Virus record (IMG/VR): IMGVR_UViG_2579778554_000010 | Source: a virus | Taxonomy: Duplodnaviria > Heunggongvirae > Uroviricota > Caudoviricetes | Reading direction: 5' to 3' (one strand) | DNA length: 49,778 nucleotides | Shown: piece after piece, positions 6,056 through 9,294 of the stretch | Position numbering within the stretch: position 1 is the first letter of the stretch | Layout of the letters: the number at the start of each line of letters is the position of its first letter | Notes under the pieces: generated by a model | What the model was told of the DNA's origin: nothing | The model's database searches: none | Seen by the model: only the letters and a program-made list of their open reading frames with translations | Made by a program: the position numbers and the translations under genes

Positions 6056-6346
6056 GCTGACCTCATTTCCCCTTAACGCCGGGTGGCGGAACTAAAACCT
6101 GCTGCATAGTTATTAAAGTTGAACCCTGCCGTCATGTTCTTACGCCTCGGGCTGGCTACTTAACCCCTGACCACTGCCTGGTAACTCGAAGTATTGCCCT
6201 GCATTCTGTAGGATGGGGTGAGGGAATGAATGAAGTTTAGAAAAACGAACTTTTCAGGTCAATGTTTTTTTATCAAAACATTTTAAGCAGGCAGCTGTTA
6301 AGCCATCACCACGATGGCATACAGTTAATCAAATAGATGAGGTTGG

Positions 6347-6985
6347 TTAAATATCTTGTTGAATTTTAAAGCATACGCCCAATATGCAAGATAGATCATC
6401 CAGCATAATTGAAGGGTAGCGAGGATTCGTGGGGACTAAAAGAATATCCGGCCCTTCTATCTCCAGTTTACGAATGACAGGTGTTGTGGTCCCTTTGGGT
6501 AAGGCAAGGACAATATTTCCTGGTTGTACGGTTCGATCGGGATCAACAAAAACTGTTGAACCATTTGGGATGGAAACTCCCCCACCAGATGTTGACATAC
6601 TGTCACTCTCTAGAACAACTGCAAAGGTATTGACCGGGATTTCTCCGACAAGCTGCACACAAGAGGTTATTGAGGAATTTTTCATATAATCACTCCAGCT
6701 TGCTGCCTGCTGAAGTGATAGTAGCGGAACCGTTTTTATCGGCGGTAAAGATAGATCAAGCGAATCACCTGTATTTAACTCTCCTCCATTAAGAAGCCAA
6801 TTTTCGTTTACTTTCAATATTTTTGCCAGTGAACTTATGTAACGCGAGGACGGCGCTCCTCCACCGTTCATCCATTGACTTACGGAGCCTTTTGATGCGC
6901 CAGTGCCATTGACAAGGTCTTTGCCTTTCAGGTTTAGCGCATGCATACGTTGGGTTATGCGTTCAGATATAGTTTGCTTGCTCAT
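6347..6985 (-). CDS. CI-type prophage repressor (N-terminal HTH, C-terminal S24 LexA-like autopeptidase domain)
   Basis: 212 aa; HTH-like N-terminus (GTGASKGSVSQWMNGGGAPSS); long C-terminal domain; divergent from a cro-like gene across an AT-rich intergenic region. Occupies the dicA position but is longer than K-12 DicA. Confidence 0.75.
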   Translation of the reverse strand: MSKQTISERITQRMHALNLKGKDLVNGTGASKGSVSQWMNGGGAPSSRYISSLAKILKVNENWLLNGGELNTGDSLDLSLPPIKTVPLLSLQQAASWSDYMKNSSITSCVQLVGEIPVNTFAVVLESDSMSTSGGGVSIPNGSTVFVDPDRTVQPGNIVLALPKGTTTPVIRKLEIEGPDILLVPTNPRYPSIMLDDLSCILGVCFKIQQDI

Positions 6986-7076
6986 GTTTTGATTTTAAAA
7001 CACAGATGGTTTTGTTTCTTGACTTTCTTTGGTTTTGATTATTAAACTTTTGACGTTCAGTTTTATGGAGCGACTC
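6986..7076. promoter_or_regulatory. Divergent immunity control region (candidate operators and promoters)
   Basis: AT-rich 91 bp between the repressor and cro-like genes, with two related 17-mers: GTTTTGATTTTAAAACA and GTTTTGATTATTAAACT. Confidence 0.45.
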
Positions 7077-7319
7077 ATGAAAAAATCAGAAGTATTAGGC
7101 TATTTTGGCGGAGTTGTTAAAACAGCCGCAGCTCTAGGAACGTCAAAAACCACAGTCAGCATGTGGGGGGAAGAGGTTCCGTGGAAATGGGCGTTGCTAA
7201 TTCAGGCAGTCACTGCCGGGGCGCTCAAATATGAGTTACACATACCGACGGTTGTCATTCCCGGTTCTGATCATAATCCGCCTTCTAACCAAGGGGGGAT
7301 TCATGAAAATCAGGCATGA
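7077..7319 (+). CDS. Cro-like small HTH regulator (DicC/YdaS position)
   Basis: 80 aa, first gene of the rightward operon opposite the repressor; start could instead be the upstream ATG at 7065. Confidence 0.6.
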   Translation: MKKSEVLGYFGGVVKTAAALGTSKTTVSMWGEEVPWKWALLIQAVTAGALKYELHIPTVVIPGSDHNPPSNQGGIHENQA

Positions 7320-7728
7320 GCACATCCGCATGGCGATGAATGCCTGGGCGCATCCGGACGGTGAAAAAGTTCCGGCAGCTGAAATAACCCGGGCTTATTT
7401 TGAGCTTGGTATGACGTTCCCGGAATTATATGACGACAGCCATCCGGAAGCCCTGGCTCGCAATACCCAGAAAATTTTCCGCTGGGTGGAGAAAGACACT
7501 CCTGATGCGGTTAAAAAAATTCAGGCGTTGTTACCAGCGATCGAAAAAGCAATGCCGCCTCTGCTGGTGGCCCGAATGCGCAGCCACAGTTCAGCTTATT
7601 TTCGGGAGCTGGTGGAGACGCGGGAACGACTGGTGAGAGACGCTGATGATTTTGTCGCAGTGGCGATCGCTGGTTTCAACCAGATGAATCGTGGTGGCCC
7701 TGCAGGAAATATTGTGGCTGTGCATTGA
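7303..7728 (+). CDS. YdaT-like protein (CII-position regulator)
   Basis: N-terminus MKIRHEHIRMAMNAW resembles recalled Rac YdaT; RBS AAGGGGGG upstream; overlaps the cro-like stop. Confidence 0.55.
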   Translation: MKIRHEHIRMAMNAWAHPDGEKVPAAEITRAYFELGMTFPELYDDSHPEALARNTQKIFRWVEKDTPDAVKKIQALLPAIEKAMPPLLVARMRSHSSAYFRELVETRERLVRDADDFVAVAIAGFNQMNRGGPAGNIVAVH

Positions 7729-7799
7729 CTCGCAATATTCATACCGGATCACTTCCGGCAATTTGTGAGTAAAAAGATTCGGTATCAGAAGAGGTGAGT

Positions 7800-8840
7800 A
7801 TGGCTAACGCCTGGCTCAGATTATGGCATGACATGCCAAATGACCCTAAGTGGCGAACAATTGCCAGGGTGTCAGGGCAGCCAATTGCAACAGTGATGGC
7901 AGTGTATATCCACCTTCTGGTGAGCGCGTCACGAAATGTCACGACATGTCACGGCGTGTCACTACGTGGTCACATTGATGTCACGACGGAAGATTTAGCA
8001 AGTGCGCTTGATGTGACGGAAGAAGTAATTGATTCAATTTTACAGGCAATGCAGGGGCGGGTACTTGATGGAGATTTAATCACCGGATGGGAAAAACGCC
8101 AGGTACTGAAAGAGGACAATGGCAACGTTTCACAAACCGCGAAATCCCCGGCAGAGCGCAAGAGAGCGCAGCGCGAGAGGGAAAAATTACGAAAACAGAA
8201 TGAGGGGTGTCACGACGAGTCACGCATATGTCACGACATGTCACGACGAGTCACGACAGATAAAGATACAGATAAAGAATTAAACCCCACACATAACGCG
8301 CACGTGCGCGAGAGTGCTCCGACCAGTGAGTCGAGTGGTACGCCGTTGCAGGCAGCAGAACCTGCATCCCTGGATGGACTGAGCGAACCCATCGGGAAAT
8401 TTCCGATGGTCGATGACTGGCATCCGTCGCCGGATTTTCGACGACGGGCTGCGTTGTGGGGGATGGCTTTGCCGGAGCCGGAATTTACACCTGCTGAACT
8501 TGCCGCTTTCCGGGACTACTGGGCAGCGGAGGGGAAAGTTTTCACGCAGGTTCAGTGGGAGCAGAAATTCGCCCGTCACGTAAATCACGTCAGGGCGCAG
8601 GTTAAGCCAGTCAGCAAGGGGGTAAACCATGCAGCAGCACCAGGTGGCACCGCATCACGGGCAGTTCAGGAAATTCGGGCAGCACGTGAGCAGTGGGAAC
8701 GTGAAAACGGATTTATCAGCGACGGAAACGGTCTGGAAGCTGTGGGAACTCATGGGGGAGGTTTATTCGAACCGCTGGACCCAGAAGAACGGGGCCGCAC
8801 CTTCGAAGCTCTGGATTGCACAGATTGGCGCGATGACTGA
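7800..8840 (+). CDS. Replication initiation protein (O-like, DnaT-like C-terminal domain) containing the origin iterons
   Basis: N-terminus MANAWLRLWHDMPNDPKWRTIA typical of prophage replication proteins; two iteron clusters inside the gene; the last ~210 nt overlap the P-like ORF in another frame, so the true 3' end is uncertain. Confidence 0.7.
   Translation: MANAWLRLWHDMPNDPKWRTIARVSGQPIATVMAVYIHLLVSASRNVTTCHGVSLRGHIDVTTEDLASALDVTEEVIDSILQAMQGRVLDGDLITGWEKRQVLKEDNGNVSQTAKSPAERKRAQREREKLRKQNEGCHDESRICHDMSRRVTTDKDTDKELNPTHNAHVRESAPTSESSGTPLQAAEPASLDGLSEPIGKFPMVDDWHPSPDFRRRAALWGMALPEPEFTPAELAAFRDYWAAEGKVFTQVQWEQKFARHVNHVRAQVKPVSKGVNHAAAPGGTASRAVQEIRAAREQWERENGFISDGNGLEAVGTHGGGLFEPLDPEERGRTFEALDCTDWRDD
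7928..7984. repeat. Iteron cluster 1: six GTCAC-core direct repeats at 10-11 bp spacing
   Basis: GTCAC at 7928, 7938, 7948, 7958, 7969 and 7980, seen directly in the sequence. Confidence 0.7.
8209..8280. repeat. Iteron cluster 2 (five GTCACGA repeats) followed by an AT-rich GATAAAGA repeat; candidate replication origin
   Basis: GTCAC at 8209, 8219, 8230, 8240 and 8250, then GATAAAGATACAGATAAAGAA. Confidence 0.7.
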
Positions 8841-9294
8841 GCAGCAAATCCGACAGGTCTGCCGCCAGTGCATGGACCGCTGCCGGGCGGGTGAAACATG
8901 GCCTCCGGACCTGGCTGAGTTTGTGGCGCTGATTTCAGAAAGCGGGGCCAATCCATTTGGCCTGACGGTGGATGCTGTGATGGAGGAGTACCGCCGCTGG
9001 CGTGATGAGTCCTGGCGATATGACGGAAGCGACAAATATCCGTGGCCTCAGCCTGTGCTGTACCACATCTGCCTCGAAATGCGTACCAGAGGGATTGAGC
9101 GCCAGATGACGCAGGGTGAGTTAAAACGACTTGCGGAACGGCAACTGACGAAATGGGCAAAGCATGTTGGTAACGGGATGAGTGTTCCGCCAGTGCGACG
9201 ACAACTGGAAGGGGCGAAACACCCGCAAGGGCCAACGCCAATTGAACGGCTGAAACAGGAATACGAACGCCGGAAGGCAGCTGGTTTTATTTGA
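8629..9294 (+). CDS. Lambda P-like replication protein (helicase loader)
   Basis: C-terminal two-thirds aligns by eye with lambda P (WPPDLAEFVALI / YPWPQPVLYHICLEMR vs lambda PSPGQFVAWC / YPWKSNAHYWLVTNLY); good RBS AAGGGGG before the ATG at 8629. Confidence 0.65.
   Translation: MQQHQVAPHHGQFRKFGQHVSSGNVKTDLSATETVWKLWELMGEVYSNRWTQKNGAAPSKLWIAQIGAMTEQQIRQVCRQCMDRCRAGETWPPDLAEFVALISESGANPFGLTVDAVMEEYRRWRDESWRYDGSDKYPWPQPVLYHICLEMRTRGIERQMTQGELKRLAERQLTKWAKHVGNGMSVPPVRRQLEGAKHPQGPTPIERLKQEYERRKAAGFI

What the first reader, a model, noticed from the sequence alone, without database searches (positions are those of the whole stretch)
7925..8285. Two iteron clusters plus an AT-rich repeat inside the replication initiator gene
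Seen in sequence: six GTCAC-core repeats at 10-11 bp spacing (7928-7984) and five GTCACGA repeats (8209-8254), followed by GATAAAGATACAGATAAAGAA, all within the O-like coding sequence. Established knowledge: lambdoid origins lie inside the O gene as iterons next to an AT-rich unwinding region. Two clusters about 225 bp apart are more than lambda's single four-iteron array and could reflect a bipartite origin.
Basis: partly seen in the sequence, partly recalled or inferred. Interest (0 to 1): 0.45.

Follow-up and report, generated by a model that had tools for sequence, protein, structure and literature searches.

The report
Two-part replication origin inside initiator gene
A prophage replication-initiator gene carries two arrays of short GTCACG repeats plus an A-rich tract that are conserved as DNA (not as protein) across many bacteria, so they are most likely the phage's replication origin, built in two parts; this is an uncharacterised variant of the classic lambda design.

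Summary
There are six GTCAC cores at 7928-7984 and five at 8209-8254, all on the + strand at 10-11 bp spacing. A conserved inverted core lies at 8013-8017, and a 77%-AT purine tract at 8255-8285. All sit in a 346-aa initiator gene (7800-8840) followed by a lambda-P-like loader. The gene is an O analogue, not an O homologue: its N-terminal winged-helix-like domain is unannotated and its C-terminal domain is DnaT-like.

Comparison of 54 loci from alpha-, beta- and gammaproteobacteria shows the following:
- Codons at the cores are frozen (Val=GTC 75/75, His=CAC 48/48), while control residues use mixed codons.
- When the iteron word changes (GTAACGC, CGAACGC, TGCAACGC), it changes in both arrays together.
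- The AT-richest 30-mer of the gene follows array 2 in 48 of 54 loci.
- No neighbouring gene is constant.
- The arrays are absent when a different N-domain is fused to the same C-half.

Best reading: array 2 plus the A-tract is the core origin, and array 1, about 280 bp upstream, is an auxiliary array for the same initiator. It sits in a disordered loop of the DNA-binding domain. No binding or replication data exist, and I found no published description. I rate it a new variant of a known kind, of moderate interest.

The parts
7800..8840 (+). Replication initiator gene (346 aa). N-terminal winged-helix-like domain (aa 1-~95), basic helix (aa ~117-134), disordered acidic linker, DnaT-like ssDNA-binding domain (aa 201-267).
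   Evidence: ORF. Pfam DnaT PF17948, E=1e-17. PHROG 'replication initiation protein' families. AF2 model. Foldseek hit to DnaT 4ou6, TM 0.9, 59% identity. N-domain has no Pfam or PDB relative.
7928..7985 (+). Iteron array 1: six direct cores (GTCACG at 7928, 7938, 7948, 7980; GTCACT at 7958; GTCACA at 7969), one per helical turn. It encodes aa 43-62, the end of helix 29-47 plus a low-confidence loop.
   Evidence: Codons frozen across 27 loci. Loop pLDDT <50 at residues 52-57. Copy number is 4 in most relatives and 6 here, through a 21-bp (2 iterons, 7 codons) indel.
8012..8017 (-). Single inverted core (GTCACA on the - strand; GTGAC on +), 33 bp after the last direct copy of array 1. It lies in codons D71-V72-T73, the turn of the helix-turn-helix.
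   Evidence: Present at the same gene position (nt 193 or 214) in most GTCAC-class loci. Val72 is GTG in 21/21 loci, while other invariant Val positions use mixed codons.
8209..8257 (+). Iteron array 2: five direct GTCACG cores (8209, 8219, 8230, 8240, 8250). It encodes aa 137-152 in the disordered linker. Proposed core-origin initiator binding sites.
   Evidence: 51 of 54 family loci have a helically phased repeated 6-mer at this position. Codons frozen.
8255..8285 (+). A-rich, purine-strand-biased tract (ACAGATAAAGATACAGATAAAGAATTAAAC, 77% AT). Candidate DNA unwinding element, directly abutting array 2.
   Evidence: It is the AT-richest 30-mer of the gene. An equivalent tract follows array 2 in 48 of 54 loci, including hosts with 66-69% GC. 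The CAGATA... motif persists in a different reading frame (DKD vs QIRE).
8258..8278 (.). Mosaic (recombination) junction between the specificity module (N-domain plus both arrays) and the C-terminal DnaT-like/P-loader module.
   Evidence: The 5' half of the gene matches Tritos/689R5/Evi-type phages and the 3' half matches Rac-SA53/PPompW-type. The alignment places the switch inside the shared A-tract.
8833..9294 (+). Lambda-P-like helicase loader gene, overlapping the initiator stop codon (ATGACTGA).
   Evidence: Pfam Phage_lambda_P PF06992, E=2.5e-15. PHROG 109 'P-like helicase loader'.

Best explanation
The region is the replication origin of this lambda-like prophage, embedded in its own initiator gene.

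SHOWN by comparative evidence:
- The GTCACG cores of both arrays, the inverted copy and the A-rich tract are under selection as DNA.
- The two arrays always carry the same word.
- They travel with the N-terminal domain of this initiator and with nothing else.

INFERRED:
- Monomers of the initiator's N-terminal DNA-binding region (winged-helix unit and/or the adjacent basic helix) bind the asymmetric cores head-to-tail, one per helical turn on one face of the DNA, and form a cooperative oligomer on each array.
- Array 2 (8209-8257) together with the abutting purine-rich A-tract (8255-8285) is the core origin. Assembly there destabilises the A-tract, the C-terminal DnaT-like domain holds the exposed single strand, and the P-like loader (8833-9294) delivers host DnaB.
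- Array 1 (7928-7985, plus the inverted site at 8013) is an auxiliary array about 280 bp upstream. It most likely joins the same nucleoprotein complex by looping or wrapping the ~225-bp spacer and so strengthens or stabilises assembly.
- Both arrays are tolerated inside the ORF because they fall in disordered segments of the protein.
- Array length can change only in in-frame steps of 21 bp (two iterons, seven codons).
For: (1) Statistics: the clusters are far beyond chance.
(2) DNA-level selection: in 27 loci from hosts of 33-69% GC, codons at the cores are fixed (Val=GTC 75/75, Gly57=GGT 25/26, His=CAC 48/48, Ser=TCA 49/52, Thr=ACG 69/77; inverted-site Val72=GTG 21/21). Equally invariant control residues use mixed codons (V32 GTG6/GTC10/GTT9/GTA2; H10 CAT15/CAC12; G86 10/11/5/1). 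The same word is read in all three frames (SR, VT, C/G-H).
(3) Array-array co-variation: in distant homologs the word becomes GTAACGC, CGAACGC or TGCAACGC in both arrays. Shared 7-mers far exceed controls, e.g. L042 20 vs 0.36, L058 15 vs 1.3, L043 15 vs 0.8. 51 of 54 loci have a phased word at array 2, and at least 37 repeat it two or more times in the array-1 loop.
(4) Link to the N-domain: both arrays are present whenever this N-domain is present, whatever the C-terminus (Tritos-type vs DnaT-type). They are absent when other N-domains are fused to the same C-half, and those carry their own repeats. No flanking gene family is constant among 25 GTCACG loci.
(5) Double-stranded recognition: conserved inverted copy; arrays inverted in L060 and L061.
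(6) Unwinding element: the AT-richest 30-mer of the gene abuts array 2 in 48 of 54 loci, is purine-biased, and is conserved across reading frames.
(7) Replication context: DnaT-like ssDNA-binding domain, P-like loader downstream, position after cI/Cro/CII-like genes, and a module boundary at the A-tract as at lambdoid origins.
(8) Protein tolerance: the arrays map to a low-pLDDT loop and linker, and a 7-aa indel falls in the loop.
Against: - There is no binding, footprinting or replication experiment for any member of this family, and I found no publication.
- Co-occurrence of the arrays with the N-domain is partly trivial, because they lie inside or next to its coding sequence.
- Array 1 is missing in several members (L045, L054, L057, L059 and others), so it is not universally required.
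- Residues of the predicted winged-helix unit do not track the iteron class. Only the basic helix at aa 116-124 does, and that signal is confounded by phylogeny.
- The A-tract is short (~30 bp).
- The prophage may be defective. A related prophage carries IS3 insertions, although it is only a mosaic relative of the window.
- Whether array 1 acts positively or negatively cannot be decided from sequence.
Confidence: 0.72

Rival explanations
1. Array 2 plus the A-tract is the origin, but array 1 is a negative control element, not part of the origin. It would titrate initiator, pair with array 2 or with a sister copy (handcuffing), or act as a roadblock to pR transcription through the initiator/P operon (autoregulation), like the control iterons of P1 (incA) or F (incC).
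For: Array 1 carries the same word as array 2, so it binds the same protein. It is dispensable in some lineages. Its copy number varies (4, 6 or more), as expected for a tunable regulator. It lies early in the initiator ORF, where a bound array could hinder transcription. Two-array iteron control is established for plasmids (own knowledge; reviewed in PMC6090056, listed but not read).
Against: Lytic phage replicons are not generally copy-limited. In Stx phages, extra iterons are needed for efficient replication rather than inhibiting it (PMC7466680). Array 1 is kept in most of the family at a fixed distance and orientation, with a conserved inverted 'bookend' site, which fits an architectural role at least as well.
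Confidence: 0.22
2. The repeats are binding sites for a different DNA-binding protein, either a host factor or another phage protein (regulator, partition or packaging factor), and happen to lie in the initiator gene.
For: No direct evidence identifies the binder. The winged-helix residues do not co-vary with iteron class.
Against: No other gene within 1.5 kb is constant across 25 GTCACG-class loci. The word differs between related phages of the same host range, and it switches when the N-domain is swapped on an otherwise identical C-half, which argues against a host factor. The position at the domain boundary, next to an AT island and upstream of a helicase loader, is the canonical origin layout. 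There are no DnaA boxes nearby.
Confidence: 0.05
3. The DNA repeats are a by-product of selection on a repeated peptide (for example Cys/His-containing motifs CH..SR..VT), or of neutral replication slippage, or they act in the mRNA.
For: The encoded residues are invariant in the protein alignment. Cys/His-rich repeats can bind metals.
Against: Synonymous positions are frozen only at the cores. One DNA word is read in three different frames and gives three different dipeptides. The segments are predicted to be disordered. A conserved copy lies on the opposite strand, and whole arrays are inverted in L060 and L061, which an mRNA element would not tolerate. Conservation from alpha- to gammaproteobacteria excludes neutral slippage.
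Confidence: 0.01

Closest known systems
Phage lambda ori-lambda inside gene O, and Stx-phage variants with six iterons (PMC7466680)
   Same: The origin lies inside the initiator gene at the boundary between the DNA-binding N-terminal part and the C-terminal part that works with the loader. Iterons are directly followed by an A/T-rich, strand-biased tract. A P-type helicase loader gene lies immediately downstream. The location is just after the cI/cro/cII-like immunity genes. Iteron number varies between relatives through in-frame insertions that lengthen the protein. The origin acts as a recombination boundary between modules.
   Different: The initiator is not a lambda-O homologue (no PF04492; DnaT-like C-domain). 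The sites are 6-bp asymmetric cores repeated every 10-11 bp, not ~19-bp dyad-symmetric sites. There are two separated arrays instead of one contiguous array, and one of them lies within the coding region of the DNA-binding domain.
Bacillus phage SPP1 oriL within gene 38 (replisome organizer G38P) plus the distant oriR (PMC6316719)
   Same: The initiator ('replisome organizer') binds direct repeats located inside its own gene, next to an AT-rich unwinding element. A second discrete set of binding sites exists. There is remote PHROG similarity to replisome-organizer/DnaD-like families.
   Different: SPP1's second site is about 13 kb away and has its own AT-rich element. Here the second array is ~280 bp upstream in the same gene and has no AT tract of its own. 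Pfam Phage_rep_org_N is not matched at threshold. The host phylum and loader type also differ.
Satellite phage P4 ori + crr (own knowledge: Flensburg & Calendar 1987; Ziegelin et al. 1993, 1995; not retrievable in the library)
   Same: A bipartite phage origin in which two separated clusters of short (octamer) iterons are bound by the same initiator and cooperate, with DNA looping between them.
   Different: In P4 the clusters are ~4.5 kb apart and lie outside the initiator's DNA-binding-domain coding region, and the initiator is a primase-helicase (alpha protein).
Iteron plasmids with a second control array (P1 incC/incA, F incB/incC; own knowledge, reviewed in PMC6090056)
   Same: Two arrays of the same iteron are associated with the initiator gene, and copy number of the second array is variable.
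   Different: Plasmid arrays flank the rep gene rather than lying inside it. Their iterons are ~19-22 bp at two-turn spacing, the Rep proteins belong to another family, and the second array is inhibitory, which is unknown here.
DopC/DopE of Cellvibrionales/Oceanospirillales and Rac-type YdaU (PMC5509034)
   Same: The gene pair consists of an 'O-like N-terminus + DnaT C-terminal domain' protein followed by a lambda-P-like protein. The window's C-half is 93% identical in DNA to Rac-SA53 ydaU/ydaV.
   Different: DopC and YdaU have other N-terminal domains (HTH_36 / DUF1376-type). DopC was reported to lack iterons, and Rac-SA53 YdaU has different repeats.

Membership tests
Lambda-type origin (ori-lambda in gene O) | Initiator belongs to the lambda O protein family (Pfam Phage_rep_O N-terminal domain) | tested here: not met
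   The Pfam scan of the 346-aa protein finds only DnaT PF17948. The N-domain alignment hits no O family even at E<=10.
Lambda-type origin (ori-lambda in gene O) | Origin located inside the initiator gene, between the N-terminal DNA-binding part and the C-terminal part | tested here: met
   Array 2 plus the A-tract lie at aa 137-162, between the N-domain and the DnaT domain. This is also the mosaic junction.
Lambda-type origin (ori-lambda in gene O) | Iterons of ~19 bp with internal dyad symmetry (bound by O dimers) | tested here: not met
   The core is an asymmetric GTCACG every 10-11 bp. Spacers are unconserved (55 distinct among 127), and only 4 of 127 junctions are palindromic.
Lambda-type origin (ori-lambda in gene O) | A/T-rich tract directly flanking the iterons on the downstream side | tested here: met
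   8255-8285 is 77% AT and is the AT maximum of the gene. The same holds in 48 of 54 loci.
Lambda-type origin (ori-lambda in gene O) | P-type helicase loader encoded immediately downstream | tested here: met
   PF06992, E=2.5e-15, for 8833-9294. Present in 15 of 25 GTCACG-class loci.
Lambda-type origin (ori-lambda in gene O) | Initiator binds the iterons and the fragment supports replication | not testable with these tools
   Requires EMSA or footprinting and a plasmid replication assay.
SPP1-type replisome organizer origin (G38P / oriL) | Initiator has the Phage_rep_org_N domain (PF09681) | tested here: inconclusive
   Pfam gives E=0.25 in 1 of 13 members. PHROG 4880 'replisome organizer' E=4.5e-5 and PHROG 10469 'DnaD-like' E=4.8e-7. 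RefSeq names relatives 'phage replisome organizer'.
SPP1-type replisome organizer origin (G38P / oriL) | Direct repeats plus an AT-rich unwinding element inside the initiator gene | tested here: met
SPP1-type replisome organizer origin (G38P / oriL) | Second, distant binding region (oriR) elsewhere in the genome | tested here: not met
   Only one exact GTCACGAC lies outside the gene (26806, - strand), and there is no other phased cluster in the window. The second array is 280 bp away in the same gene.
Iteron-plasmid replicons with a control array (P1/F type) | Rep_3-type initiator; 19-22 bp iterons; arrays flanking the rep gene | tested here: not met
   No Rep family hit. The period is 10-11 bp. 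Both arrays are intragenic.
Iteron-plasmid replicons with a control array (P1/F type) | Second array inhibits initiation (handcuffing/titration) | not testable with these tools
   Needs copy-number or replication assays with array 1 recoded.
DnaT-like C-terminal domain phage initiators (YdaU/DopC-like) with a P-like partner | DnaT ssDNA-binding domain in the C-terminal half, followed by a lambda-P-like gene | tested here: met
   PF17948, E=1e-17. Foldseek hit to 4ou6, TM 0.9, 59% identity. PF06992 downstream. 93% DNA identity to Rac-SA53 ydaU/ydaV over the 3' half.

The most novel reading that the evidence does not exclude
Array 1 and the protein loop it encodes are functionally coupled. The iteron array inside the DNA-binding domain's coding region specifies the very segment of the initiator (aa 44-62, with R56-G57 invariant across all iteron classes) that contacts the iterons or mediates oligomerisation on them. 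Binding site and binding determinant would then be one piece of DNA that co-evolves and is exchanged as a unit. Together with looping between the two intragenic arrays, this would be a self-referential origin/initiator module that has not been described for any replicon.
Probability: 0.1. Interest if true: 0.8.

Novelty: new variant of a known kind. Interest (0 to 1): 0.52.

Why it matters
This replication module is common. It matches about 2,560 of 5,426 complete E. coli genomes at least in part, including O157:H7 prophages. Its N-domain family has 868 detectable homologs across Proteobacteria and in Pseudomonas, Aeromonas and Ralstonia phages. Even so, its origin appears never to have been mapped.

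If the model holds, it would:
- give a sequence rule for finding origins in a large class of prophages: a helically phased 6-7-mer present twice in the initiator gene and followed by a CAGATA-type purine tract;
- explain the mosaic breakpoints in these genes;
- show a clean case of overlapping DNA and protein constraints, with frozen synonymous sites and arrays that can grow only in 21-bp steps;
- provide a tractable system for asking what a second iteron array does in a lytic replicon;
- bear on replication cross-talk or incompatibility between co-resident prophages in pathogenic E. coli.

Tried and rejected
- **Literature.** Seven searches (Rac/ydaU/iterons, lambdoid+DnaT, replisome organizer+iterons, oriJ, P4 crr, the literal iteron sequences, generic phrases) found no description of this origin. 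The sequence-string hits were unrelated primers.
- **Protein-repeat explanation.** Rejected by the codon test.
- **Lambda-like dyad symmetry.** The GACATGTC palindromes seen in the window (I17) are not conserved, so this was rejected.
- **DnaA boxes.** None near the origin.
- **Second distant iteron cluster (SPP1 oriR-like).** None in the window.
- **Constant neighbouring DNA-binding gene.** None found.
- **118UI RefSeq annotation as a proxy for the window.** Abandoned for detail, because the window is only a mosaic relative of that prophage.
- **Plasmid search for an autonomous replicon.** Mostly integrated prophages on large plasmids, plus two ~51-kb circular P. aeruginosa records. Not informative.
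- **Specificity residues in the recognition helix.** None track the iteron class. Only the basic helix does, and that signal is confounded by phylogeny.
Full report
**1. Observation**

- GTCAC occurs on the + strand at 7928, 7938, 7948, 7958, 7969 and 7980 (spacing 10, 10, 10, 11, 11) and at 8209, 8219, 8230, 8240 and 8250 (spacing 10, 11, 10, 10).
- Nine of these eleven copies read GTCACG.
- Six of the seven exact GTCACGAC octamers in the whole 49.8-kb window lie here.
- Tandem Repeats Finder calls period-10 arrays at both places.
- From the window-wide GTCAC rate, six copies in 57 nt has P of about 6e-11.
- One detail needs correcting: the 8219 copy is GTCACGC, so only four of the five cluster-2 copies are GTCACGA.
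- Directly after cluster 2 comes ACAGATAAAGATACAGATAAAGAATTAAAC (8255-8285). At 77% AT it is the AT-richest 30-mer of the gene, and it is purine-rich on the coding strand.

**2. The host gene and its context**

- All of this lies in ORF 7800-8840 (+), 346 aa.
- Upstream are an S24/HTH repressor on the opposite strand, a P22-Cro-like gene and a YdaT/CII-like gene.
- Downstream, overlapping the stop codon, is a lambda-P-like helicase loader (8833-9294).
- The initiator is not a lambda O homologue. Pfam finds only a DnaT ssDNA-binding domain at aa 201-267, and Foldseek confirms it (4ou6, TM about 0.9, 59% identity).
- The N-terminal ~155 aa have no Pfam or PDB relative. They show only remote PHROG similarity to replisome-organizer/DnaD-like proteins and structural similarity to Lin1244-N/DUF1376-type phage proteins.
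- The AF2 model gives three helices, a low-confidence loop (aa 48-62), a helix-turn-helix plus beta-wing (aa 63-93), a basic helix (aa 117-134) and a disordered linker.
- Cluster 1 encodes aa 43-62, which is the loop. Cluster 2 encodes aa 137-152, which is in the linker.
- The window is a lambda-like prophage next to ompW. It is a mosaic relative of the one in E. coli 118UI.

**3. Mosaic structure**

- DNA searches split the gene at the A-tract. The 5' half (to about 8278) matches phages Tritos, Evi and 689R5, which have a different C-terminus. The 3' half (from about 8258) matches Rac-SA53 ydaU/ydaV and PPompW prophages, which have different N-termini.
- An alignment places the switch inside the shared GATAAAGATACAGAT tract.
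- Every gene with this N-domain has both GTCAC clusters.
- Genes with the same C-half but another N-domain lack them and carry their own repeats just upstream of the same tract: ACCCAAA x6 in L006, and TGTTCAA x3 plus one inverted in Rac-SA53.
- This is the modular logic known for lambdoid O genes.

**4. Family-wide test**

- The N-domain has 868 detectable homologs. I fetched 55 loci from alpha-, beta- and gammaproteobacteria.
- In about 27 of them, from hosts with 33-69% GC, GTCAC sits at the same gene positions: nt 129/139/149/160, inverted at 193, and 3-5 copies near 387-418. The common state, probably ancestral, is therefore 4 + 1 inverted + 3. The window's lineage has expanded to 6 + 1 + 5.
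- The protein residues that are invariant in this family are exactly those encoded by the cores.
- Is the selection on the peptide or on the DNA? The codon test answers this.
  - At the cores, Val is GTC in 75/75, Gly57 is GGT in 25/26, His is CAC in 48/48, Ser is TCA in 49/52, and Thr is ACG in 69/77. Val72 at the inverted site is GTG in 21/21.
  - Equally invariant control residues use freely mixed synonymous codons.
  - One DNA word is read in three frames (S-R, V-T, C/G-H).
  - The selection is therefore on the DNA.

**5. The two arrays co-vary**

- In more distant homologs GTCACG is replaced by GTAACGC, CGAACGC or TGCAACGC, and the new word appears at both positions.
- 7-mer sharing between the cluster-1 loop region and the cluster-2 region far exceeds sharing with the rest of the gene: L042 20 vs a mean of 0.36, L058 15 vs 1.3, L043 15 vs 0.8, L053 10 vs 0.6.
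- 51 of 54 loci have a helically phased repeated 6-mer at the cluster-2 position.
- At least 37 repeat the same word two or more times in the 51-120-nt loop region, while the remaining 500-800 nt of the gene (both strands) usually contain none or one.
- Some members have cluster 2 only (L045, L054, L057, L059 and others).
- Loop lengths fall in classes that differ by 21 nt (51 vs 72, 54 vs 96 nt), which is two iterons or seven codons. That is the only way an array with a ~10.5-bp period can grow in frame.
- Spacers between cores are not conserved and the junctions are not palindromic. The unit is therefore an asymmetric 6-bp core once per helical turn, unlike lambda's 19-bp dyad sites.

**6. 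The A-tract**

- The AT-richest 30-mer of the gene lies just after cluster 2 in 48 of 54 loci.
- It is purine-rich on the coding strand, and it reaches 77% AT even in hosts of 66-69% GC.
- The CAGATA(A/C)AGA motif persists even when it is read in another frame (DKDTD vs QIREE), so this tract too is constrained as DNA.
- There are no DnaA boxes nearby.

**7. Who binds?**

- Among 25 GTCACG-class loci no flanking gene family is constant. The P-like loader is present in 15 of 25, and any upstream family in 6 of 25 or fewer. The N-domain is the only constant partner.
- The conserved inverted copy, and the inverted arrays in L060 and L061, point to recognition of double-stranded DNA rather than an mRNA signal.
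- Outside the iteron-encoded codons, residues that track the iteron class lie in the basic helix (K121, R122, Q124), not in the winged helix. This is only a hint, because it is confounded by phylogeny.

**8. Interpretation**

- The best-supported reading is an origin of replication embedded in its initiator gene.
  - Array 2 plus the A-tract is the core.
  - The DnaT-like domain probably captures the opened strand, and the P-like protein loads DnaB.
  - Array 1 is an auxiliary array for the same initiator, about 280 bp upstream, most likely joined to the complex by looping or wrapping.
- What is shown: DNA-level selection, co-variation of the two arrays, the link to the N-domain, and the AT island.
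- What is inferred: binding, unwinding, looping and the sign of array 1's effect.
- The main rival is that array 1 is a negative control or autoregulatory array of the P1/F type (confidence about 0.2). Other rivals, namely another binding protein, a peptide repeat, an RNA element or chance, are poorly supported.

**9. Comparison with known systems**

- The layout parallels ori-lambda (PMC7466680) and SPP1 oriL in gene 38 (PMC6316719).
- The use of two separated clusters of short iterons recalls P4 ori/crr and the plasmid control arrays (own knowledge).
- The DnaT-C + P gene pair matches the YdaU and DopC/DopE architecture (PMC5509034), for which iterons were reported absent.
- It fails the membership tests for the lambda O family (protein family, iteron type) and for Rep_3 plasmids. 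Membership of the SPP1 organizer family is inconclusive.
- I found no publication describing this origin. The library does not include most subscription-journal papers, so absence is not proof.

**10. Verdict**

It is a new variant of a known kind: a widespread, uncharacterised initiator family with a bipartite, intragenic, helically phased iteron origin. Interest is moderate (about 0.5). The principle is classical, but three things make it worth an experiment: the strength of the dual-coding signal, the second array inside the coding region of the DNA-binding domain, and the prevalence of the module in E. coli prophages.

Noticed in passing
window 8297-8310: There is a perfect 14-bp palindrome, CGCGCACGTGCGCG, 12 bp downstream of the A-tract. 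The O157 relative (L004) has a different 12-bp palindrome, CGCGCATGCGCG, at the same spot. Rac-SA53 and L006 do not. Lambda's origin also has a palindrome to the right of its AT-rich tract.
   Followed up: partly
L006 gene nt 292-477 (locus 1312-1497); L003 (Rac-SA53 ydaU) gene nt 149-452: Other N-terminal domain types fused to the same DnaT-like C-half carry their own repeat sets just upstream of the shared A-tract: ACCCAAA x6 in L006, and TGTTCAA x3 plus one inverted in Rac-SA53. These are probably the iterons of those initiator types.
   Followed up: partly
L019 and L020 (Gilvimarinus, Cellvibrionales), genes at 1501-2457 and 1501-2466: These loci carry the GTCACG arrays, and L020 has a lambda-P-like gene downstream. 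DopC/DopE, the domesticated O/P-like pair of Cellvibrionales, was reported to lack iterons (PMC5509034). I did not determine whether these loci are prophages or relate to dopCE.
   Followed up: no
window 7800-8840, aa 116-124 and aa 56-57: Outside the iteron-encoded codons, the residues that track the iteron word class lie in the basic helix (K121, R122, Q124), not in the winged helix. R56-G57 in the array-1 loop is invariant across all iteron classes. Both are possible DNA-contact determinants.
   Followed up: partly
L052 (Serratia MAG) and L056 (Pantoea), genes at 1501-2691 and 1501-2805: The same N-domain is fused to a much longer, different C-terminus. These genes have TACGTA repeats in place of cluster 2 and no cluster 1.
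   Followed up: no
window, whole length: Matches to the DnaA box TTATCCACA with at most 1 mismatch number 20 against about 10 expected. Sixteen are on the - strand, and none is within 2.7 kb of the origin region.
   Followed up: no
E. coli genome collection: O157:H7 genomes contain 4-5 places matching this replication module, so co-resident prophages may share or cross-activate origins. Overall, 2,564 of 5,426 complete genomes match at least half of the query.
   Followed up: no
window vs NZ_CP032515.1 (L064): The window is 100% identical to strain 118UI over 7700-8900. Elsewhere it is only a block-wise mosaic of that ompW-adjacent prophage (84-99% identity, with a different immunity region at about 6100-7298). 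The 118UI copy carries two IS3 insertions.
   Followed up: partly
plasmid records CP137943.1 and CP124671.1 (P. aeruginosa, ~50.9 kb): Two circular ~51-kb 'plasmid' records encode this N-domain at 74% identity. They may be episomal or replicating phage genomes of the phi1/Marin type.
   Followed up: no
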